Assembly: GCA_027310965.1 (NCBI GenBank)
Contig: DAICZW010000002.1
Span: 14,108-46,370 of the forward strand
Reading direction: 5' to 3'
Length of the DNA stretch: 32,263 nt
Origin: a bacterium
GTDB lineage: Bacteria; Patescibacteriota; Minisyncoccia; UBA6257; 2-01-FULL-56-20
A program made the translations under genes and the position numbers. The notes beneath the pieces are model-generated. The model saw nothing but the letters and a program-made list of their open reading frames with translations, made no database searches and was not told the DNA's origin. Within the stretch, counting starts at the first letter, position 1. Every line of letters begins with the position of its first letter. This document shows positions 1,868 to 32,069 of the stretch, piece by piece.

Positions 1868-1956
1868 TGTCGTTCCCGGCTTGGCCGAGGATTCACGCTT
1901 TGAAAATTTAAGACAAAAGATGGGAAGCATAGATCCTTGACTCCGCGGGGACGACA
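1868..1956. repeat. family 1 palindromic element, head-to-head doublet
   Basis: TGTCGTTCCCG..GAGGATTCACGCTT / AAGCATAGATCC..CGGGGACGACA. Confidence 0.85.
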
Positions 1957-7344: not shown

Positions 7345-7448
7345 CGTCGTCCCCGCGGAGGCGGGGATCCATGCTTTCTTTTAGACTTTCGGCTACCAGC
7401 CATCAGCTCGATAGAAAGCGTTGATCCTCAACCGAGTTGAGGACGACA
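7345..7448. repeat. family 1 doublet
   Basis: CGTCGTCCCCGCGGAGGCGGGGATCCATGCTT / AAGCGTTGATCCTCAACCGAGTTGAGGACGACA. Confidence 0.9.
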
Positions 7449-7930: not shown

Positions 7931-8044
7931 TCTGTCGTTCCCGCGGAGGCGGGGATCCACGCTTTAAAAACTCAGCGATTTGAGATTTATGATTCACGAA
8001 AAAAGACGGGAAGCTTGGATATTCGCCTTTGCGGGGACGACAGA
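7931..8044. repeat. family 1 doublet
   Basis: TCTGTCGTTCCCGCGGAGGCGGGGATCCACGCTT / AAGCTTGGATATTCGCCTTTGCGGGGACGACAGA. Confidence 0.9.
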
Positions 8045-10470: not shown

Positions 10471-10502
10471 TGTCGTTCTCGCGAAGGCGAGGATCCACGC
10501 TT
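10471..10502 (+). repeat. single family 1 unit
   Basis: TGTCGTTCTCGCGAAGGCGAGGATCCACGCTT; 31/32 identical to 27791-27822. Confidence 0.9.
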
Positions 10503-12310: not shown

Positions 12311-12410
12311 AAAAGACGGGAAGCGTGGATCCTTGACTTCGCGAGGACGACGGAGGGGGAGGATTCTTATTTCCGCGAAGACGACAGAGAGGACGGAACG
12401 AGGACGACGG
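12311..12410 (-). repeat. family 1 right-hand unit followed by two decayed tandem units
   Basis: AAAAGACGGGAAGCGTGGATCCTTGACTTCGCGAGGACGAC, then GGATTC..GCGAAGACGACAGA and CGAGGACGAC. Confidence 0.8.
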
Positions 12411-15602: not shown

Positions 15603-15677
15603 AATAGGACGTGCGCATTTGAAAAAATCATAAGAAAATGTCTCAAACCGTAGCGGCGCCAGCGCGGGCGTCCTATT
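15603..15677 (+). repeat. family 2 element (TAGG-ended, 9-bp terminal inverted repeat)
   Basis: AATAGGACG...CGTCCTATT; core TGCGCATTTGAAAAAATCATAAGAAAATGTCTCAAACCG shared with 24202 and 31085. Confidence 0.85.
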
Positions 15678-15683
15678 AAATTT

Positions 15684-18107
15684 ATGGAAAACAAAAAGGC
15701 AAACGTTCCCACTATTTTCGTAGTGCTTGGCGCAACGGGCGATCTTATGGCAAGAAAGATCGTTCCGGCGCTTTTTAATCTGCACGAGAGAAAAAAACTG
15801 CCGCATCGTTTCAAATTGGTGGGCATTTCGCGGCGCGGCTGGACCGATGAAGACCTGAAAAAACACATCGCCACCATTCTTGCCGTGAAGGCGCCCGGCG
15901 CGTCCGCGGCAAACGTGGCGTCGTTTTTGGAATTGGCGCAGTACCATAAAATTGAATTCAACGATCGTTCCGATTATGTCGGACTGGGTGATGCGTTGAA
16001 AAAAATCGATAAAGCATGGGGCATGTGCGCGAACAAACTGTTTTATCTTTCGGTCCATCCGCAGTTTTATGATGTGATTTTTGAAAACATCCACGCGAGC
16101 CATCTTGCCGACGGGTGCGGACCGGACGAAGGCTGGACGCGCATCGTGGTGGAAAAACCGTTCGGGAACGACGAAAAAAGCGCGAAGGCGCTGGACGCGC
16201 GCCTCGCCAGGCTTTTTAAAGAAGAGCAGATTTATCGCATCGACCATTATCTCGCCAAGGAAATGCTCCAGAATATTCTTGCATTCCGGTTCGGAAACAA
16301 TCTTTTTGAAGGGGAATGGGACCGCGGTTTTATCGAAGCGATTAATATCAGGCTTTTTGAAAGCATTGGCGTGGAAGATCGCGGTGGATTTTATGACGGC
16401 GTGGGAATGCTGCGCGATGTCGGGCAGAACCACCTTCTTGCGATGCTTGCGCTGATTACGATGGAAAAACCGGAACGGTATGACGCCGCGGCAATACGGC
16501 GCGCCCGCGCGGAACTTTTGCGCACGCTGAAAATACCGACCGTCGCCGAAGCGGCGGCATCGTCGTTCCGCGCGCAATACGACGGCTACCGGTCCATAAA
16601 AGCCGTTGCGGCGGATTCGCAAACCGAGACGTATTTCAAGATAAAAGGATATCTTGCGGGGCGGCGATGGGAAGGCATTCCCGTCGTGATGGAATCAGGC
16701 AAGCGCATGGGGATAGCGCGTAAGGAAATCGAAATCATTCTGCGTCATCGGCGTCCTTGTTTTTGTCCGGACGGCAATCATCAAAAAAATCGCATCGTGA
16801 TCCGTCTCGAGCCCAAAGAAGGGATTACGATTGCGTTCTTTTCGAAAAAAAAGGGATATTCGTTCGAGACCGAGGAGCGGTCGCTTGCGTTTGATTTTCG
16901 GGACGAAAACGTTCCCGCCGCCGGCATCCGTAAAAAAGAAGCTCATGCGCAGTACACCGAAGAATATGAAAAATTGCTTTTGGATTGCATCGCGGGCGAT
17001 CAGACCCTTTTTGTTTCGAGCGAAGAAGTCACCGCGATGTGGCGGTTCACCGATCCCTTTATCGCCGCATGGGAAAAGAAGCTGGTGCCGCTCCGGCATT
17101 ACGCTCCCGACCATGACGCCATCGCCGGAGAAGCCGACGCCATCGACCGGACGCGGTCGCGGAACATCCCCGTTGCGCCGAAGGAAATCGGCGTCATCGG
17201 CCTTGGCAAGATGGGCGCAGGCGTGGTCCGCCAGCTTCATGAAAAAGGATGGCGCGTTGTCGCCGCAAACCGGTCGCCGGAGCCCGTGCGCGAAATGGAA
17301 AGGGAAGGTATCGCGGGCGCCTTTTCGTCCGCTGATCTTGCTGCGAAATTAAAATCGCCGCGGATTGTCTGGATTATGATTACGGCCGGAAAAGGAGTTG
17401 ATGAAAATTTATTCGGCAAAAACGGCATTGCTGGACACCTTAAAAAAGGAGATATCGTAATCGACGCGGGCAATTCGTTTTATGAAGACACGATCCGCCG
17501 CGCAAAAATTTTCAAAAGAAAGGGAATCCGCTTTATGGATGTCGGATTTTCGGGCGGTCCCGCCGGCGCGCGCCATGGCGGTTCGCTGATGATCGGCGGC
17601 GAGAGGAAGACATTCGAATATCTGGAGCCGCTTTTCCGCGACCTTTCCGTGCCGCAAGGATATGAATATTTCGGCGAAGCCGGCGCGGGGCATTTTGTGA
17701 AGATGGTGCATAACGGCATCGAGTATGGCATGATGCAGTCGATCGCCGAAGGGTTCGCGCTTATGAAAAAATCAAAGTTCCGTCTTGATGTCCGGAAAAT
17801 TGCCGAGGTTTATAACCGCGGGAGCGTCGTCGAATCGCGGCTGGTCGGCTGGCTCGAAGATGCGTTCCGCATTTACGGAAAAGACTTGAAAACGGTGTCC
17901 GGTTCGGTGGCGTACACCGGCGAAGGCGAGTGGACCGTGAAGACCGGTAAAAAAATGAAAATGAAACTGCCCGTTATAGAGGACGCTTTCAAATTCCGCG
18001 TTCGTTCGAAAAAATCGCCGAGCTACACGGGGAAGGTCCTTTCCGCCATGCGCAATCGTTTCGGCGGCCATGCAATCGGTGATAAAAATAAAAATAAGAA
18101 AAAATAA
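15684..18107 (+). CDS. zwf-gnd: fused glucose-6-phosphate dehydrogenase / 6-phosphogluconate dehydrogenase (short type)
   Basis: GATGDL, EKPFG, RIDHYLAKE, DVGQNH (G6PDH); from aa ~500 GLGKMG, IDAGNS, SGGPAGA, KMVHNGIEYG, MRNRFGGH (6PGDH). Confidence 0.93.
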   Translation: MENKKANVPTIFVVLGATGDLMARKIVPALFNLHERKKLPHRFKLVGISRRGWTDEDLKKHIATILAVKAPGASAANVASFLELAQYHKIEFNDRSDYVGLGDALKKIDKAWGMCANKLFYLSVHPQFYDVIFENIHASHLADGCGPDEGWTRIVVEKPFGNDEKSAKALDARLARLFKEEQIYRIDHYLAKEMLQNILAFRFGNNLFEGEWDRGFIEAINIRLFESIGVEDRGGFYDGVGMLRDVGQNHLLAMLALITMEKPERYDAAAIRRARAELLRTLKIPTVAEAAASSFRAQYDGYRSIKAVAADSQTETYFKIKGYLAGRRWEGIPVVMESGKRMGIARKEIEIILRHRRPCFCPDGNHQKNRIVIRLEPKEGITIAFFSKKKGYSFETEERSLAFDFRDENVPAAGIRKKEAHAQYTEEYEKLLLDCIAGDQTLFVSSEEVTAMWRFTDPFIAAWEKKLVPLRHYAPDHDAIAGEADAIDRTRSRNIPVAPKEIGVIGLGKMGAGVVRQLHEKGWRVVAANRSPEPVREMEREGIAGAFSSADLAAKLKSPRIVWIMITAGKGVDENLFGKNGIAGHLKKGDIVIDAGNSFYEDTIRRAKIFKRKGIRFMDVGFSGGPAGARHGGSLMIGGERKTFEYLEPLFRDLSVPQGYEYFGEAGAGHFVKMVHNGIEYGMMQSIAEGFALMKKSKFRLDVRKIAEVYNRGSVVESRLVGWLEDAFRIYGKDLKTVSGSVAYTGEGEWTVKTGKKMKMKLPVIEDAFKFRVRSKKSPSYTGKVLSAMRNRFGGHAIGDKNKNKKK

Positions 18108-24201: not shown

Positions 24202-24370
24202 AATAGGACATGCGCATTTAAAAAAAATCATAAGAAAATATCTCAAACCGCATCGGACAAGGCCCGTTCCTCCGTTATTTTCCGGTTATTTTTATCGCCG
24301 AGCACCCGTCGGACTACGTCCCGGAAAATAACCGGAAAATGTCTCGTACTCGGCACAAGCGCGTACGTCC
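24202..24370 (+). repeat. family 2 element interrupted by a ~100-bp insert with a 16-bp internal inverted repeat
   Basis: Family 2 core to CTCAAACCG (24250), resumes GCACAAGCGCGTACGTCC; ATTTTCCGGTTATTTT (24277-24292) pairs with AAAATAACCGGAAAAT (24325-24340). Confidence 0.8.
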
Positions 24371-24441: not shown

Positions 24442-27400
24442 ATGCCGGCAAAGAAAGAAACCAGAAAAAGCGCAGCGAAAAAAACAACGAGGAAGACAAA
24501 GAACGCTCCGGCGCATCATGTCCCGAATTTCCTTGACGGGGAATTCGAGTTTCCGAAACTGGAAGAAAAAGTTTTGGCATTTTGGGACGAGCATAAAATT
24601 TTTGAGAAAAGCCTGGAAAAGAATTTATCAAAACGCACGTCCGCGGCGGCGAAGAAGAAATTCATTTTTTACGAAGGGCCGCCGTATGCGAACGGGAAGC
24701 CCGGTATTCATCACGTGCTTGCGCGCGTCGTGAAGGATGTTATTTTGCGCTACAAGACGATGCGCGGTTATTACGTGCCGCGGCGCGCGGGCTGGGACAC
24801 GCACGGCTTGCCGGTCGAGATGGCGGCGGAGAAAGCGCTGGGTTTCAAGTCGAAAAAAGAGATTGAACAATACGGCATCGAGGCGTTCAATAAAAAAGCG
24901 AAGGAGCAGGTGTGGCTTTATAAGGACGAATGGGAAAATATCACGCGGCGCATCGGCTATTGGCTGGACCTTAAAAATGCTTACGTTACCTACGAGCCGG
25001 AATATATAGAGAGCGTTTGGTGGACAATAGCACAGATCGCAAAGCGCAAATTATTGTACAAGGGGCACAAAGTGGTGCCGTGGTGCACGCGCTGCGGTAC
25101 GGCGCTTTCCTCGCATGAGCTTGCGCAAGGCTATAAGGAGGTGGAGGACAATGCGGCGTATGTGAAATTCAAATTGAAGTCCGGACAGAAAATCGGGCCT
25201 TTTATGGCGGATGATAAAACATATATTTTGTCATGGACGACGACGCCATGGACATTGCCGGGAAACGTGGCTTTGGCGGTGGGGAAAGACATTGAATATG
25301 TTGTGGCGGAAAAGATTGATTCCCGCGAAAAATATATTCTTGCGAAAGATATATTCATAAAGAGAACAAGAGATGACCAGGATAGTCGTATTACGGATCA
25401 GCGTTCCGGTTGGGATAAAAATGCAAATGAATTTTTAGGAATTTTTAATTTTCAAGAGATAAAAGGTTCCGATCTCGTTCGTTTGGAATACGAGCCGCTT
25501 TTTAAGGTTCCTTCGTTGAAGAATGAAAAATCTTATAAAATCTATCCCGCTGATTTCGTGACGACGACGGACGGCACGGGCGTCGTGCATATTGCGCCGA
25601 TGTACGGTGAGGATGACTACGCGCTTGGAAAAAAATTCGGGTTTCCGGAACGCCATACCGTAAGCGAAGAAGGAAAATTCACGAAGGACGTTCCGGAGCT
25701 TGAAGGCCGGTATGCGAAAGCAAAAGAAACGGAAGAAAAAATTTTCGACCACTTGAAAGCGCGCGGCAATTTTCTGAGTATTGAAAAATATGCGCATGAA
25801 TATCCGTATTGCTGGCGTTGCGGCACGGCGATTTTATATTACGCCAGAATATCGTGGTTTATCGGGATGAGCGGACTTCGGAAAGAACTTCTGGCGCGGA
25901 ATAAAAATATCAACTGGATGCCGGCGCACGTGAAAGAAGGCAGGTTCGGCGAATGGCTTCGCGAGGCAAAAGACTGGAATCTTTCACGCGAACGTTATTG
26001 GGGCACGCCGCTCCCGATCTGGGAATGTAAAAAGTGCGGGCATGCGTCGGTCGCGGGAAGTATGGATGAACTAAGCCGTCTTGCCGGCGGACCGAAAAAT
26101 AATTATTGGGTGATGCGGCATGGCGAGGCGGAAAATAATGCTTTTGATATCATCAATTCGAAAGGCGGCGCGTTTCATTTGACGCCGCGCGGAAAAAGAC
26201 AGGTTACGGCGGCGATAAAGAAATTGAAGACGTCGCTTGCGCGGGAACATAAGCATATCGACATTATTATCGCATCGGACGTGCTGCGGACGAAAGAGAC
26301 AGGAAATATAGCCGCGGAAATTTTTACGGGAGAAAAAATTCTTATCGACGCGCGGCTTGAAGAAATCCACTTAGGGCCGGCGTTTGACGGCTATCGCGAC
26401 GAGAAATATCACAAACAGTTCTCGACCTACGAATCGCGTTTTGAAAAACGGCCCGAAGGCGGTGAATCTTTGCGCGACGTGCGCCGCCGCGTGTGGGAAT
26501 TTTTGCGGGATTGCGAGAAAAAATATAAAGAAAAAAATATTCTCATCGTGAGCCATGAATATCCGATCTGGATGCTGTCGCACGCCGCGGAGGGGTGGAG
26601 CGAAAAACGCGCGATCACGGAAAAAGAAAAAATAGACGAAGAGGGGAAAGGCGGTGTATTTATAGATTTCGCCGAAATCCGGAAGCTTGACGTGAAAATT
26701 CTGCCGCGCAACGAAAGCGGCGAGGTTGATCTCCATCGGCCGTATGCCGACGAGATGACGGTGCCGTGCGTGAAATGCGGGGCGGATATGCGCCGCGTGC
26801 CGGAAGTGGCGGATGTGTGGTACGATTCCGGCGCTATGCCGTTTGCGCAGGCGCATTTTCCGTTCGCGTCCGTTCGAATCAAAAACGGAAAATCAAAAAC
26901 GGAGCATCGGGCAGGATTGGATTTCCCCGCCGATTATATCGCAGAGGGGATGGACCAGACGCGCGGATGGTTTTATACCATGCTTGCGATTGCGACCGCC
27001 ATGGATTATCCCGCGCCGTACAGGAATGTCGTTTCTCTCGGTCTTATCAATGACAAGTTCGGGCAGAAAATGTCCAAGTCGAAAGGAAATATCGTCAATC
27101 CATGGGATATGATGGAAAAATATGGCATTGACGCCGTGCGCTGGTATTTCTTTACGGCGGCGCCGCTCGGCGAACCGAAGGATTTTGACGAGCAGGAGAT
27201 TATGAAATCGTTCCGGAAAACGCACCTCATCGTTTACCATTCGTTTATTTTCTGGAAAACGTACGCGCGCAGGACGGCCGGCCAATCAAAGGCGGTAAAA
27301 AGCAAAAATCTTCTCGATCGATGGATTCTTGCGCGGCTTCATGAAACAATAAACGGCGTCGCGCAAAAACTCGAACGTTATGAGATCCGCGAAGCGGCGC

Positions 27401-28218
27401 TTGAGACGGGGATTTTGATCGACGATCTTTCGCGGTGGTATATCCGCCGCTCGCGGCGGCGTTTGCAGAAACCGGAAACTGCCGCCGATTATCAGGCAGC
27501 ATCCGCGACCCTGCACTATGTCCTTTTGGGGCTTGCGAAACTCATGGCACCGTTCACGCCGTTTTTCGCGGAGATGCTGTATGCGGGGCTTGGCGGAGAA
27601 AAAGAATCGGTGCATTTGGACGAATATCCTGCATCAGGCGATAAGCGACAGGAAATAAGCGGCAGAAAATTAACGGCGTCGATGCAGGCAGTGCGTGAGA
27701 CGGCGGCTTTAGGGCTTTCCGCGCGCGCCATGGCGGGAATAAAAGTGCGCCAGCCGCTGGCAAGGCTAAAAGTTAAAAGCGACATTCTTATGTCGTCCTC
27801 GCGAAGGCGAGGATCCACGCTTCAAAAAAGCGGGAAGTTAAAAATAGGGAAAGAATTTCTTGACATTCTTGCCGACGAGGTGAATGTGAAAGAAATCGTT
27901 TTCGATGCGAAGATAAAAGATGACGTCGAACTTGATACCGCGATCACGCCCGCGCTGCGCGAAGAGGGAATGATGCGCGAATTTATCCGGAAGGTGCAGG
28001 AATTGCGGCAGAAGGCGGCGCTGCAGCCGAAAGATATTATCGCCGTTGCGTTTGATGTTCCGCCGCCGGTGCGCGATGCGATCACGAAAAACGAGGCGTT
28101 CGTGAAAACCGAGATCGCCGCAAAAATGATAAATATCGGGCGATCTGATAAGATGAATGCGGAGGAAACAATCAAAATGGAAGGCGCGGAATCGTGGATC
28201 GGGATACGGAAGATATAA
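24442..28218 (+). CDS. ileS: isoleucine--tRNA ligase (type 2) with inserted histidine phosphatase domain
   Basis: EGPPYANG.PGIHH, GWDTHGLP, WTTTPWTL, SRERYWG, EGMDQTRGW, KMSKS, WYIRRSR; RHG domain at ~26095-26695. Confidence 0.97.
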   Translation: MPAKKETRKSAAKKTTRKTKNAPAHHVPNFLDGEFEFPKLEEKVLAFWDEHKIFEKSLEKNLSKRTSAAAKKKFIFYEGPPYANGKPGIHHVLARVVKDVILRYKTMRGYYVPRRAGWDTHGLPVEMAAEKALGFKSKKEIEQYGIEAFNKKAKEQVWLYKDEWENITRRIGYWLDLKNAYVTYEPEYIESVWWTIAQIAKRKLLYKGHKVVPWCTRCGTALSSHELAQGYKEVEDNAAYVKFKLKSGQKIGPFMADDKTYILSWTTTPWTLPGNVALAVGKDIEYVVAEKIDSREKYILAKDIFIKRTRDDQDSRITDQRSGWDKNANEFLGIFNFQEIKGSDLVRLEYEPLFKVPSLKNEKSYKIYPADFVTTTDGTGVVHIAPMYGEDDYALGKKFGFPERHTVSEEGKFTKDVPELEGRYAKAKETEEKIFDHLKARGNFLSIEKYAHEYPYCWRCGTAILYYARISWFIGMSGLRKELLARNKNINWMPAHVKEGRFGEWLREAKDWNLSRERYWGTPLPIWECKKCGHASVAGSMDELSRLAGGPKNNYWVMRHGEAENNAFDIINSKGGAFHLTPRGKRQVTAAIKKLKTSLAREHKHIDIIIASDVLRTKETGNIAAEIFTGEKILIDARLEEIHLGPAFDGYRDEKYHKQFSTYESRFEKRPEGGESLRDVRRRVWEFLRDCEKKYKEKNILIVSHEYPIWMLSHAAEGWSEKRAITEKEKIDEEGKGGVFIDFAEIRKLDVKILPRNESGEVDLHRPYADEMTVPCVKCGADMRRVPEVADVWYDSGAMPFAQAHFPFASVRIKNGKSKTEHRAGLDFPADYIAEGMDQTRGWFYTMLAIATAMDYPAPYRNVVSLGLINDKFGQKMSKSKGNIVNPWDMMEKYGIDAVRWYFFTAAPLGEPKDFDEQEIMKSFRKTHLIVYHSFIFWKTYARRTAGQSKAVKSKNLLDRWILARLHETINGVAQKLERYEIREAALETGILIDDLSRWYIRRSRRRLQKPETAADYQAASATLHYVLLGLAKLMAPFTPFFAEMLYAGLGGEKESVHLDEYPASGDKRQEISGRKLTASMQAVRETAALGLSARAMAGIKVRQPLARLKVKSDILMSSSRRRGSTLQKSGKLKIGKEFLDILADEVNVKEIVFDAKIKDDVELDTAITPALREEGMMREFIRKVQELRQKAALQPKDIIAVAFDVPPPVRDAITKNEAFVKTEIAAKMINIGRSDKMNAEETIKMEGAESWIGIRKI
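27791..27837 (+). repeat. family 1 unit inserted in frame in ileS
   Basis: TGTCGTCCTCGCGAAGGCGAGGATCCACGCTT..AAAAAGCGGGAAG, read as MSSSRRRGSTLQKSGK. Confidence 0.9.
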
Positions 28219-28250
28219 GATTATTTTTTTTCGCTGCATAAAAAACAATA

Positions 28251-29582
28251 ATGAAAAAAAAATCATCGCAATTCAAAAATATCATCGCGCGGCGCGAGTT
28301 CGTAACGGTATGGGTATCGCTTGCGCTCATTATCGCTGTATGCGCAATCGGCATATCGTTCCTGTCGCCGCTTTTCGCCTTGTTGGAAGCTGGATTTTTA
28401 TGCGTCGTTTTCATCCTCTTTTTTATGGGTGTGTATGCGTCGGCGCGAACCAATCAAATGACCGCGATCGAGCGGAATGAATTGCAAAGTGTCTTGAGCG
28501 GGCTTGAAGATGCGCTTGTCGTTTACGACAATCATTTTAACGCCACTTTTTTCAATCCTGCGGCGGAGCGGCTTTTCAAAATAAATGCGAAGGAGGTGAT
28601 AGGGCATACATTCACGCCGCAGGACGTGGAACGGGCGGGTTGGACGACGCTTACCCAGGTTATTTTTTCTTCGCTTGCGCCGCGTGTCGTGAGCCGATCC
28701 AAAGAAGGGGAATATCCCGAGGTGGTGGATCTTTCTTTTAGCGATCCCGCGATCGAACTGCGCGTTACGACGGCGCCGATCACCGAAGAGCGCGGCGCAA
28801 CGCTTGCATTTATGAAGATCATCCGTGATCGCACGGGGGAAATCGCGGCGTTGCGCGCCAATACCGAGTTCGTGACGGTAGCTTCGCATCAATTGCGCGG
28901 TCCGTTGACCAATATCAACTGGGCGTTCCAGTCGCTTGCGCAATCAACCGGACTGAATGATACGGACAAGGTTATGGTGGCAGGCGCCTCCGGTGCGGCG
29001 CGCGACCTTCTCCGCAGGATTGATGAGCTTTTGATTGTCGCGAAAATGGACGAAGGGCATGTGGGCTATAATTTCGAGGAAGCGAACATCGTTGATTTCA
29101 TAGGGAACATCCTGGGCGATGTGGTGCCGCAGGCGCGGATGGCGGGCATAAAAATATATTTTGACCGTCCTTCGGATGAGTTGCCGCGCGTTATGATCGA
29201 TCCGGCGCAGCTTTCCATCGCCGTCGTCAATATCATAGAGAATGCTATCCGCTATAACGTTGCGAACGGGGAAGTGATCGTAAAAGCGGAAAAGAAGGAT
29301 GATGCGCCTTTCATTGCGGTAAGCGTGCGGGATACCGGCATCGGCATTCCCGCCGAATCAATGGAAAAGGTTTTTACGAAATTTTTCCGCGCCGACAATG
29401 CCGTGAAATCGCAGACCGAAGGATCGGGACTCGGTCTTTATATCGCGAAAAGCATTGTCGCCGCGCATGGCGGCGCGATGACTGTCGCGTCGGAAGTGGA
29501 CCGCGGCACGATAGTCACGTTCACTATTCCCACCGATCCGGCGCTTGTCCCGAAGCGCGAAATCGGAGCGGAATATTTATAG
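28251..29582 (+). CDS. membrane PAS-domain sensor histidine kinase
   Basis: 2 TM, FNPAAE PAS, SHQLRGPL H-box, NAIRY, DTGIG, GSGLGL. Confidence 0.93.
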   Translation: MKKKSSQFKNIIARREFVTVWVSLALIIAVCAIGISFLSPLFALLEAGFLCVVFILFFMGVYASARTNQMTAIERNELQSVLSGLEDALVVYDNHFNATFFNPAAERLFKINAKEVIGHTFTPQDVERAGWTTLTQVIFSSLAPRVVSRSKEGEYPEVVDLSFSDPAIELRVTTAPITEERGATLAFMKIIRDRTGEIAALRANTEFVTVASHQLRGPLTNINWAFQSLAQSTGLNDTDKVMVAGASGAARDLLRRIDELLIVAKMDEGHVGYNFEEANIVDFIGNILGDVVPQARMAGIKIYFDRPSDELPRVMIDPAQLSIAVVNIIENAIRYNVANGEVIVKAEKKDDAPFIAVSVRDTGIGIPAESMEKVFTKFFRADNAVKSQTEGSGLGLYIAKSIVAAHGGAMTVASEVDRGTIVTFTIPTDPALVPKREIGAEYL

Positions 29583-31084: not shown

Positions 31085-31153
31085 ATAGGACGTATGCGCT
31101 TGTGCCGGTTTGAGGCATTTTCTTATTATTTTTTTCAAATGCGCACGCCCTAC
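31085..31153 (-). repeat. family 2 element, uninterrupted copy
   Basis: Reverse complement GTAGGGCGTGCGCATTTGAAAAAAATAATAAGAAAATGCCTCAAACCGGCACAAGCGCATACGTCCTAT. Confidence 0.85.
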
Positions 31154-31535: not shown

Positions 31536-31754
31536 GTGAAGGAAACTGGATTTTGGCAGGAAAGTACCGCAGAAACCATATGTGTCGGAGAAAATTATGC
31601 CTCTATGCGTGATTTTCTCCGAGATGTCGGGTCAAACCTGAAAATACAAAATTCTCTTTTCACTCTCGCGTTAAAAAATCCGTTTGATTATCTATACAAT
31701 TGGCGTACACAAAACCGCGGCGTAGCCGCGGCAGTTGTGGAAAATTCTGAACTG
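31536..31754 (+). pseudogene. possible C-terminal remnant of a serine recombinase/integrase reading into the tmRNA 3' end
   Basis: RDFLRDVGSNLKIQNSLFTLALKNPFDYL resembles, from memory, tails of tRNA-adjacent recombinases; frame continues antisense into tmRNA (WRRRESNSR). Confidence 0.4.
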
Positions 31755-32069
31755 TGGAGACGGAGAGAATCGAACTCTCGTCTAACGATGGTGCCGGTGG
31801 GCCGTCTACGGGCGTAGTTTGACCGAAGTCGAAACGAATGCGATTCAATGTTCTCGCGCGCGGCGTAGAATCATCATCCGCGCGCCAGCTTCCTTATATA
31901 AGACCGGTGATTGGTTCAAGAAGCCCGAACCAGCCGATCCCCGCATTACGCGTAAGCGAACGCGGGAGCTGCAACTTTGTTGTTGGCAGTTGTTGTTGGT
32001 GCAACGATTATGCCGTTGCCATCAGCCCGCAAACCCGCGGCGCATCGCTATCGAAGCCAGTGCGTCCCC
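31755..32069 (-). ncRNA. ssrA: tmRNA, 315 nt; tag (A)ANNKVAAPAFAYA* at 31987-31946
   Basis: 5' GGGGACG pairs with 3' CGTCTCC-A (G3:U70); T-arm GAGAG-TTCGATT-CTCTC; long helix 2; CAACT-GCC resume context; tag ends in a hairpin; CCA not encoded. Confidence 0.95.

What the first reader, a model, noticed from the sequence alone, without database searches (positions are those of the whole stretch)
27791..27837. Intergenic palindromic unit inserted in frame in essential IleRS
Seen: 27791-27822 is 31/32 identical to the intergenic unit at 10471-10502, followed by a collapsed spacer (AAAAAGCGGGAAG). It is translated as MSSSRRRGSTLQKSGK between RQPLARLKVK and EFLDILADEVNVK with no frame break. Known: Rickettsia palindromic elements do this. 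Inference: a recent insertion, showing the family is or was lately active and creates new protein sequence in a CPR-like genome.
Basis: partly seen in the sequence, partly recalled or inferred. Interest (0 to 1): 0.75.

Follow-up and report, generated by a model that had tools for sequence, protein, structure and literature searches.

The report
Hairpin repeat translated inside IleRS gene
A short hairpin DNA repeat that normally sits between genes has landed in frame inside the only isoleucyl-tRNA synthetase gene of a tiny-genome bacterium, adding a floppy 17-residue loop; this is the known Rickettsia-type "selfish DNA inside genes" phenomenon, here in a new lineage.

Summary
Window 27791-27822 is 31/32 identical to the intergenic unit at 10471-10502. 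It is read through without a stop inside the 1258-aa ileS ORF 24442-28218.

The unit belongs to a dispersed family. G000 holds 99 units and a reversed-genome control holds 0. Within 3 mismatches the counts are 49 in G000, 10, 27 and 5 in three relatives, and 0 in 27 others.

Its anatomy is tag TGTC/CGTC, an 8-bp covarying stem, a 4-nt loop and a CCA tail. This fits the published CGTC-1 REP class, which the paper equates with Rickettsia RPE-6 (PMC3733652).

None of the 18 relatives that cover the site has the peptide, and the same-genus IleRS is exactly 17 aa (51 nt) shorter. An AlphaFold model puts its only run of pLDDT below 50 inside the insert.

The same family also sits in frame in trmD, tsaE and valS of this genome. 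Related REPs sit in valS, mnmA, recG and a uvrD-like gene of relatives.

Translation, the date of insertion and the mobilising enzyme are not shown. Verdict: a new member of a known kind. The scan has already noted similar in-frame repeats in at least 26 other Patescibacteria genomes.

The parts
24442..28218 (+). ileS ORF (1258 aa), the only full-length IleRS match in the genome
   Evidence: open frame; Pfam tRNA-synt_1, Anticodon_1 959-1106, DUF5915 1162-1257; the other G000 matches are paralogues of 771 and 1072 aa.
27782..27832 (+). Inserted segment, 51 nt = 17 codons. Boundaries are uncertain by about 6 nt because AAAAGCG occurs at both edges (27775-27781 and 27826-27832).
   Evidence: 49 aa between VRQPL and EVNVK here, against 32 in L002 (same genus) and L003; direct repeat AAAAGCG.
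27779..27797 (+). 5' mini-hairpin module GCGACAT-TCTT-ATGTCGT, overlapping the REP tag
   Evidence: 7-bp stem in the MFE fold; the same 23-nt module is identical in trmD and occurs with 3 substitutions at C11:15054 and C14:3945 in front of other hairpins.
27791..27817 (+). CGTC-1-type REP core: tag TGTC 27791-27794, stem 27795-27802, loop GAAG 27803-27806, stem 27807-27814, tail CCA 27815-27817
   Evidence: sequence; family consensus and pair counts; nhmmer 40.4 bits, best unit in the window.
27818..27822 (+). Conserved 3' extension YGCTT of the unit
   Evidence: columns 28-32.
27823..27837 (+). Remnant of the dimer spacer (CAAAAAAGCGGGAAG); the inverted partner REP is missing
   Evidence: spacers of dimers D2, D8; spacers genome-wide.
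10471..10502 (+). Intergenic solo unit, 31/32 identical to the ileS copy
1868..1956 (.). Intergenic dimer (units 1868-1900 + and 1925-1956 -)
7346..7376 (+). Family unit with a 5' mini-hairpin (GACGCAAT-TCTT-ATTGCGTC)
7933..8042 (.). Intergenic dimer (units 7933-7964 + and 8011-8042 -)
12321..12351 (-). Family unit, 94% complementary to the ileS copy
   Evidence: I4.

Best explanation
A monomer of a CGTC-1-type REP was copied into the linker of ileS. That linker joins the last strand after the anticodon-binding domain to the first helix of the C-terminal domain. The copy carried its small 5' hairpin module and a stub of the dimer spacer.

The added length is 51 nt, a multiple of three. The unit has no stop codon in 5 or 6 of its 6 frames. 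The frame therefore runs on, and the gene should make an IleRS with about 17 extra residues (roughly DILMSSSRRRGSTLQKS) as a disordered, basic, Ser/Arg-rich surface loop.

The insert is most likely a tolerated passenger. Copies that land out of frame or in structured parts are lost, so the surviving intragenic copies lie in variable loops of long-lived housekeeping genes.

Shown: homology to the dispersed family, its absence from relatives at this site, frame continuity, and the position in a variable, low-confidence loop. Inferred: translation, near-neutrality, and that the family moved by itself. The enzyme that moves it is unknown.
For: Family and chance. G000 holds 99 units and the reversed genome 0. 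Within 3 mismatches there are 49 hits and 0 control hits. The 8-bp stem is paired in 582 of 672 cells, against a shuffle mean of 547.5 (sd 4.2, maximum 562 in 500 shuffles), with TA/CG and GC/TA/CG swaps.

Insertion. None of 18 relatives covering the site has the peptide. L002 (same genus) and L003 are exactly 17 aa shorter.

Parallel cases in G000, all lacking in the genus-mate and in every aligned relative:
- trmD, +14 aa, 0 of 19 relatives
- tsaE, +17 aa, 0 of 13 relatives
- valS, +12 to 19 aa, 0 of 13 relatives

All three sense frames are used.

Cases in relatives: G018 valS at another site, G018 mnmA in antisense orientation, G018 recG with a dimer, and a G012 uvrD-like helicase with a dimer.

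Open frames. 82 of 99 units have at least 5 of 6 frames open.

Depletion from genes. At most 19 of 99 units lie wholly inside a greedy ORF, although such ORFs cover about 83% of the genome.

Loop. In the AF2 model of residues 929-1258 (mean pLDDT 85.4), pLDDT falls below 50 only at model residues 191-193 and 195-204, which lie inside the insert. The flanks are strand 178-183 and helix 209-219.

Permissive site. In G008 the same linker carries a different dispersed double-hairpin repeat (6 copies, control 0).

Assembly. Unitigs of 4 of 4 runs cover both junctions.
Against: No RNA or protein data show that the insert is transcribed and translated as written. The closest comparison genome is only 69% identical in IleRS, and a metagenome scan found nothing closer (best 48%), so the event cannot be dated. 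No empty-site allele was seen.

No family-wide target-site duplication exists: 5 of 82 elements have flanking direct repeats of 8 nt or more, against 6% in mismatched-flank controls. No Y1 transposase was found in G000, G001 or G012. Autonomous movement is therefore not demonstrated.

The read support comes from one study that may be the source of the assembly. In-CDS calls rest on Pfam. 27 of the 36 scanned ORFs had no family and may hide further cases or be spurious.
Confidence: 0.85

Rival explanations
1. The loop has been exapted. The Arg/Ser-rich peptide, or the three-hairpin RNA it is read from, now contributes to tRNA handling or to regulation of ileS, so it is kept by selection and is not a neutral passenger.
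For: 6 of the 8 Pfam-supported host genes found here handle tRNA: ileS, valS twice, trmD, tsaE and mnmA, against recG and uvrD-like. The insert RNA folds far better than shuffles (-28.9 kcal/mol, z -5.6, 0 of 200 shuffles as good). The unit ends in a single-stranded CCA after a helix.
Against: The same family is used in three sense frames and in antisense, giving unrelated peptides. The insertion sites differ between genomes, and the genus-mate lacks all four G000 insertions. The insert is predicted to be disordered. The stable fold is simply a property of the repeat wherever it lies. PMC3733652 (discussion) argues that insertions in many unrelated proteins speak against functional constraint.
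Confidence: 0.08
2. The segment is an old, inherited linker variant, or the gene segment is the source of the family; it is not an insertion.
For: The linker is variable in length in the family: 32 to 49 aa between the two motifs in the six sequences printed. A-rich native sequence at both edges blurs the junctions.
Against: 0 of 18 relatives have it. The unit is 31/32 identical to intergenic copies and ranks 4th of 99 in likeness to the profile. The family also exists in two other genera whose ileS lacks it.
Confidence: 0.03
3. Assembly artefact: a repeat-induced chimaera placed the unit in ileS.
For: De Bruijn unitigs break inside the repeat, and other copies share up to 35 nt with this one (loose ends and records 2, 10, 18, 26).
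Against: In 4 of 4 runs one unitig runs from unique left flank to 27804, another from 27779 to unique right flank, and a 34-mer bridges them, all with 0 differences. Both flanks are the same gene in the right order, and the frame is kept exactly.
Confidence: 0.03
4. The 51 nt are present in the DNA but are not represented in the protein. Examples would be ribosomal bypass between the two in-frame AAA AGC codons 51 nt apart, or removal at the RNA level.
For: A direct repeat AAAAGCG flanks a strong hairpin, and the spacing is in frame. From recall, this resembles take-off and landing sites of phage T4 gene 60 and of mitochondrial 'byp' elements.
Against: There is no stop codon or rare codon after the first AAA AGC, so ordinary decoding is not blocked. 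The valS copy has no flanking repeat and the trmD repeat is only 7 nt in A-rich sequence. No known intron or intein fits 51 nt.
Confidence: 0.01

Closest known systems
CGTC-1 REPs, intragenic copies (Di Nocera, De Gregorio & Rocco 2013, PMC3733652). The paper equates them with R. conorii RPE-6 and Neisseria dRS3. I read passages, section 6 and supplement 3.
   Same: Both have a TGTC/CGTC tag, an 8-bp stem, a 4-nt loop, a CCA tail, dimers that can fold as one long hairpin, and mostly intergenic copies downstream of genes. Single units and dimers are read through in frame inside known genes, tRNA synthetases and repair genes among them. The encoded peptides are the same types (VIPAKAGI, DSRLRGND, CHSRESGNP, SFPRKRES, WIPAFTGMT). 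No dedicated transposase is known.
   Different: The host is a 0.74-Mb genome that earlier notes call Patescibacteria; the paper lists CGTC REPs in 5 other phyla only. The main stem variant here is GTCCTCGC, with G-T instead of A-T as the first pair. The unit carries a conserved YGCTT extension and, in a subfamily, a 5' mini-hairpin module. ileS is not among the hosts I saw in the supplement rows returned.
Rickettsia palindromic elements, RPE-1 type (Ogata et al. 2000 and 2002, as summarised in PMC10969869 and PMC3733652; the originals were not read)
   Same: Palindromic repeats inserted in frame into housekeeping genes that stay functional, adding surface peptides.
   Different: RPEs are given there as about 150 bp with a conserved peptide. 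The ileS insert is 51 nt, a single REP hairpin with stubs, and the family is read in several frames.
REPINs and RAYT transposases (GTAG REPs; described in PMC3733652; Bertels & Rainey is cited from recall)
   Same: Two inverted REP hairpins separated by a conserved spacer, in tens to hundreds of copies.
   Different: The tag is TGTC/CGTC, not GTAG. No Y1/RAYT gene was found in G000, G001 or G012. The one in G018 is not flanked by this family within 1.5 kb.
MITEs (review PMC10969869, passages read)
   Same: Small, non-coding and dispersed; can make in-frame fusions.
   Different: No target-site duplication is detectable family-wide. No related full-length IS was identified here.

Membership tests
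CGTC-1 REP (PMC3733652) | Terminal tetranucleotide CGTC, often changed to TGTC or CCTC | tested here: met
   84 distinct ungapped units: position 1 T60/C19, position 2 G76, position 3 T70, position 4 C80. The ileS copy has TGTC.
CGTC-1 REP (PMC3733652) | Stem of 8 bp | tested here: met
   582 of 672 cells form standard pairs (shuffle mean 547.5, maximum 562). Compensatory types occur at pairs 9-20, 11-18 and 12-17. One search shows CCTCGC/GCGAGG, CCCGGC/GCCGGG, CCTGGC/GCCAGG and CCCCGC/GCGGGG variants.
CGTC-1 REP (PMC3733652) | Complementary A-T residues in the first and second stem positions | tested here: inconclusive
   the first pair is G-T in 58, A-T in 8 and G-C in 7 of 84; the second pair is T-A in 72 of 84. 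Copies in G012 and in G018 recG have the canonical ATTCC.../...GGAAT.
CGTC-1 REP (PMC3733652) | Loop of 4 nt | tested here: met
   columns 13-16: G77, A46/G33, A77, G82 (GAAG or GGAG).
CGTC-1 REP (PMC3733652) | Short unpaired tail, consensus CCA | tested here: met
   columns 25-27: C75, C61, A72 of 84.
CGTC-1 REP (PMC3733652) | Mostly HH dimers with conserved spacers | tested here: inconclusive
   15 '+-' pairs, 2 '++' pairs and 65 apparent singles. In the pairs the tags face outward and the spacer is conserved. I did not see the paper's definition of 'head', so I cannot say whether these are its HH or TT type.
CGTC-1 REP (PMC3733652) | Intragenic copies give the peptide types listed for R. 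conorii and S. wittichii CGTC-1 | tested here: met
   (supplement 3): VIPAKAGIHA, VVPAEAGIHA, SVIPANAGIQ, LDSRLRGND, MDSRLRGDD, AWIPAFAGMT, CHPGEGRDP, CRPREGEDP, LSSSRRRGS.
CGTC-1 REP (PMC3733652) | No dedicated (flanking) tyrosine transposase | tested here: met
   PF01797 gave 0 matches in G000 (96% complete), G001 and G012. G018 has one match, without this family in its 1.5-kb flanks.
Rickettsia palindromic element RPE-1 | Element of about 100-150 bp encoding one conserved peptide, inserted in frame | tested here: not met
   The insert is 51 nt. The family is read in three sense frames and in antisense. The in-frame behaviour itself is met.
REPIN / RAYT system | GTAG-tagged REPs with a cognate RAYT gene flanked by them | tested here: not met
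   The tag is TGTC/CGTC. There is no Y1_Tnp in G000.
MITE | Terminal inverted repeats plus a target-site duplication of fixed length | tested here: not met
   The dimers do have inverted arms. Flanking direct repeats are no longer than in mismatched-flank controls: 5 of 82 are 8 nt or more, against 6% in controls. The only outlier is tsaE, at 14 nt.

The most novel reading that the evidence does not exclude
CGTC-type REPs are still being copied in these 0.7-0.9-Mb genomes without any tyrosine transposase. A host replication or repair route, such as template switching primed by short A-rich microhomology, would copy a hairpin together with its 5' mini-hairpin module. The copies that persist inside genes would be enriched in tRNA-handling enzymes because the basic loops, or the CCA-tailed helices in the mRNA, are useful there. 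On this reading hairpin repeats would be a main source of the lineage-specific protein insertions of Patescibacteria, and the small gene set would make the long-open question of how CGTC REPs move testable.
Probability: 0.07. Interest if true: 0.65.

Novelty: new member of a known kind. Interest (0 to 1): 0.38.

Why it matters
It shows that the Rickettsia-style colonisation of essential genes by REP hairpins also shapes proteins in ultra-small Patescibacteria-type genomes. Hosts here include four translation genes of one 0.74-Mb genome. The same permissive loops are hit repeatedly by different repeat families; the ileS linker is an example.

I found no paper linking Patescibacteria with REPs in the two searches run. 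The mechanism and the repeat class are already published (PMC3733652).

Practical consequences:
- Lineage-specific loops in CPR proteins should be checked against the genome's own repeats before being read as functional novelties.
- Genomes this small, with about 100 copies and no Y1 transposase, narrow the search for whatever moves CGTC REPs.

Tried and rejected
RNA evidence: no RNA holder was listed for the stretch, so expression could not be examined.

Closer relatives: a metagenome-contig scan with the IleRS C-terminus gave 5 loci, best 48% identity. None was useful for dating the insertion.

Rfam, gathering thresholds, whole window: only tmRNA matched; no family covers the repeat.

Target-site duplication: tested family-wide and rejected. 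The AAAAGCG (ileS) and TCAAAAG (trmD) edge repeats lie in A-rich sequence and are not convincing. AAGTTAAAA in ileS would give a 65-nt, out-of-frame insert. GACATTCTT would give 81 nt, which does not fit the 17-aa difference.

Candidate in-ORF copies that turned out to lie upstream of the true start, or in ORFs without any Pfam family: grpE, hrcA (the unit lies just upstream of a TTGACA-17-TATAAT promoter-like site), the S30AE gene, alaS, a DeoR-HTH gene, and 27 ORFs with no family. The 10 copies in G001 all lie outside long ORFs.

A strict 'always sense orientation' rule was considered and dropped after G018 mnmA and the dimers. 'Only tRNA enzymes' was dropped after uvrD-like and recG.

RAYT link: the single Y1_Tnp gene, in G018, has other hairpins beside it, not this family.

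Not used: complex prediction, fold search, the Atlas, the search for homologous proteins and the search of protein representatives.
Full report
THE OBSERVATION

Window 27791-27822 reads TGTCGTCCTCGCGAAGGCGAGGATCCACGCTT. It differs at one base from 10471-10502 (families D1/D4). The 10471 copy begins 10 nt after the stop of an 810-aa ORF.

The 27791 copy lies inside ORF 24442-28218, which is open for 1258 codons and reads ...VRQPLARLKVKSDILMSSSRRRGSTLQKSGKLKIGKEFLDILADEVNVK.... Pfam identifies the ORF as a class I synthetase with Anticodon_1 (959-1106) and the type-2 IleRS C-terminal domain DUF5915 (1162-1257). It is the only full-length IleRS match in the genome. That genome is 736,702 bases in 67 contigs, 96% complete, and the window is G000:C22:14108-46370.

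The tail AAAAAAGCGGGAAG (27824-27837) matches the distal spacer AAAAAAGACGGGAAGC of the window's full dimers with one base missing.

THE FAMILY

Three rounds of nhmmer, seeded with five window copies, give 99 units at E<=0.01 in G000. The reversed genome gives none even at E<1.

A degenerate 31-mer with up to 3 mismatches gives these counts:
- 49 hits in G000
- 10 in the same-genus G001
- 27 in G012
- 5 in G018
- 0 in the other 27 relatives
- 0 for the reversed-pattern control in all 31 genomes

The consensus is TGTC | GTCCTCGC | GAAG | GCGAGGAT | CCA | YGCTT. Across 84 distinct ungapped copies the 8-bp stem is paired in 582 of 672 cells. The shuffle mean is 547.5 (sd 4.2, best of 500 shuffles 562). 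Compensatory swaps occur, for example TA 46 / CG 21 at pair 9-20. Relatives carry CCCGGC/GCCGGG, CCTGGC/GCCAGG and CCCCGC/GCGGGG stems.

Many units form pairs of inverted units, tags outward, around a conserved spacer. Some solo units carry a small 5' hairpin that includes the tag.

WHAT KIND OF REPEAT

I checked that against the paper, PMC3733652 (Di Nocera et al. 2013). I read passages, section 6 and supplement 3; the figures are not held.

The paper defines CGTC-1 REPs by:
- a CGTC tag, often TGTC or CCTC
- an 8-bp stem that usually begins with A-T pairs
- a 4-nt loop
- a CCA tail

It says they lack a dedicated transposase, and that they equal R. conorii RPE-6 and Neisseria dRS3.

Tag, stem length, loop and tail are met here. 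The first stem pair is mostly G-T here, whereas copies in G012 and in G018 recG have the canonical ATTCC.../...GGAAT.

Supplement 3 lists peptides encoded by intragenic CGTC-1 REPs: VIPAKAGI, DSRLRGND, CHSRESGNP, SFPRKRES, WIPAFTGMT. The same words, or near variants, appear in the frames of the units here.

The paper also reports REPs inside tRNA synthetase and DNA-repair genes, and it lists CGTC REPs in five phyla, none of them this one.

PF01797 (Y1 transposase) is not found in G000, G001 or G012. G018 has one copy, and this family does not lie within 1.5 kb of it.

IS IT AN INSERTION

IleRS genes of 19 relatives were extracted. One (L004) ends before the site. None of the other 18 has the peptide.

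Between the invariant VRQPL and E[VI]NVK motifs the window has 49 residues. L002 (same genus, 69% identical) and L003 have 32, a difference of exactly 17 codons. L003 shares the native AGGCTAAAAGTTAAAAG up to the left edge.

The edges are blurred by AAAAGCG at both sides, 51 nt apart. I therefore give the insert as 27782-27832, uncertain by about 6 nt.

The 23-nt left module AAAAGCGACATTCTTATGTCGTC is identical in the trmD copy. It recurs with 3 substitutions at two other places, in front of different hairpins. It therefore travels with the repeats and is not native ileS sequence.

In the ileS and trmD comparison, 46 of 48 bases from this module to the end of the unit agree.

ASSEMBLY

Logan unitigs of four runs reproduce the left junction (27300-27804), a 34-nt bridge (27775-27808) and the right junction (27779-28300), all without differences. 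No contig skips the unit. The runs are from one study and may be the source of the assembly, and contigs drop rare variants. This excludes a gross assembly error but not a minor empty-site allele.

WHERE IT SITS IN THE PROTEIN

A profile of the C-terminal 330 residues matches solved type-2 IleRS chains (8c8u and others, E 7e-61). The insert falls between ...PLxSLxL and the helix ...DELNVK.

An AlphaFold2 model built on the 19-sequence alignment has mean pLDDT 85.4. Confidence drops below 50 only at model residues 191-193 and 195-204. These are P0001 residues 1119-1121 and 1123-1132, inside the insert. The flanks are strand 178-183 and helix 209-219.

In G008 the same linker holds a different insertion. 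That insertion is itself a copy of a dispersed double-hairpin repeat of that genome (6 copies within 3 mismatches, control 0). The linker is thus a permissive spot that has been colonised more than once.

NOT A ONE-OFF

I scanned 36 stop-to-stop ORFs that contain a unit against Pfam. Three besides ileS have domains on both sides of the unit:
- trmD, 14 aa longer than G001; 0 of 19 relatives carry the peptide
- tsaE, 17 aa longer; 0 of 13 relatives. A perfect 14-nt direct repeat flanks the unit
- valS, 12-19 aa longer; 0 of 13 relatives

The three sense frames are all used: MSSSRRRGSTL, CRPREGKDSRL / CRLRGGEDPRF, and AVPAKAEIRAF.

Six other ORFs with a family had the unit upstream of the real start or of the matched domain, and 27 had no family.

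In relatives:
- G018 valS carries a unit at another site.
- G018 mnmA carries one in antisense orientation.
- G018 recG carries a dimer of the canonical ATTCCGGC type.
- A G012 uvrD-like helicase carries a dimer.
- None of G001's 10 copies lies in a long ORF.

82 of 99 units have at least five of six frames free of stops. At most 19 of 99 units lie wholly within a greedy ORF, although such ORFs cover about 83% of the genome. The greedy ORF set is a rough proxy, not a gene annotation.

HOW IT MOST LIKELY WORKS

A REP monomer, with its 5' mini-hairpin and a spacer stub, was copied into a variable linker. Its length is a multiple of three and the unit lacks stops, so the frame continues. The enzyme gains a disordered, basic Ser/Arg-rich loop of about 17 residues, which is tolerated. 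Insertions elsewhere are purged, and that explains the strong depletion from coding sequence and the restriction to variable loops.

In the mRNA the region folds into three adjacent hairpins (-28.9 kcal/mol, z -5.6, 0 of 200 shuffles as good). This is a property of the repeat and need not have a role.

How the unit was copied is unknown:
- There is no Y1 transposase in this genome.
- There is no family-wide target duplication: 5 of 82 elements have flanking repeats of 8 nt or more, against 6% in controls.
- The A-rich microhomology at the ileS and trmD edges and the 14-nt duplication at tsaE are unexplained.

RELATIVE AGE

The insertion is younger than the split from G001. The ileS copy ranks 4th of 99 in likeness to the family profile; trmD ranks 17th, tsaE 35th and valS 62nd. 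This suggests different ages, with ileS among the youngest. No absolute date can be given. A metagenome scan found no closer relative (best 48%).

COMPARISON AND NOVELTY

This is an intragenic CGTC-1-type REP, the class that includes Rickettsia RPE-6. It behaves as described in PMC3733652 and in the MITE review PMC10969869 (passages read).

New here are:
- the host lineage: earlier notes call it Patescibacteria/Paceibacteria (not checked here); the small genome is shown
- the stem variant
- the 5' module
- the set of host genes

Two literature searches found no paper linking Patescibacteria or the candidate phyla radiation with REPs or with palindromic insertions in synthetases. The scan itself has reported similar in-frame palindromic insertions in at least 26 other Patescibacteria genomes. 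Those are unchecked AI notes.

Six of the eight Pfam-supported host genes handle tRNA. I did not compute a proper null for this, so it is a lead, not a finding.

Noticed in passing
window 26107-26607 (IleRS residues 556-722): A histidine-phosphatase domain (Pfam His_Phos_1, 1.9e-27) is nested inside the catalytic domain of IleRS. Most relatives have IleRS ORFs of 1163-1255 aa, so it seems conserved in the family. The scan has many earlier notes on this design in other genomes.
   Followed up: partly
L007 (G008:C5:26633-26662) and G008:C7:36836-36865: The same IleRS linker in genus g8 carries a different palindromic insert (…SAGGRSSSGGKSQ…). It is a copy of a dispersed double-hairpin repeat of that genome (6 copies within 3 mismatches, control 0). 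One further copy lies within the span of a 1062-aa class I synthetase ORF on C7; I did not verify it in frame.
   Followed up: partly
L150 (G018:C5:42185-45490): A recG-like ORF carries an in-frame dimer of canonical CGTC-1 REPs (…SVIPANAGIQ…LDSRFHGND…). It lies directly upstream of a 234-aa Y1_Tnp/RAYT-like gene (HUH motif HYH, YIHTNP). The spacer in front of that gene holds two other perfect hairpins that are not this family.
   Followed up: partly
G000:C9:3075-3160 (tsaE): A perfect 14-nt direct repeat, TGAAAAGTGGAAAA, flanks the in-frame unit in tsaE and gives KSGK…KSGK in the protein. No other element in the genome has so long a flanking repeat.
   Followed up: partly
window 24204-24250, 15605-15656 and 31106-31152: A second repeat of about 47 nt (TAGGAC.TGCGCATTT…AAAAATCATAAGAAAAT.TCTCAAACCG) lies just upstream of ileS and upstream of the 807-aa ORF 15684-18107. 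It also occurs inverted at 31106-31152 (I1, I8, I17, D19). It could be a shared promoter or leader, or another repeat family.
   Followed up: no
G000:C7:7100-7370 (hrcA-grpE region): Two units flank a TTGACA-17-TATAAT promoter-like site just upstream of hrcA, and a third lies between hrcA and grpE.
   Followed up: partly
window 31752-32069 (-): tmRNA gene (Rfam RF00023, 119.7 bits).
   Followed up: no
G000:C28:4645-5631: A 329-aa open frame with hydrophobic stretches contains a unit (RRPREVKDPRF) at residues 222-232 but has no Pfam family. It may be a fifth in-frame case in an unannotated membrane protein, or a spurious ORF.
   Followed up: partly
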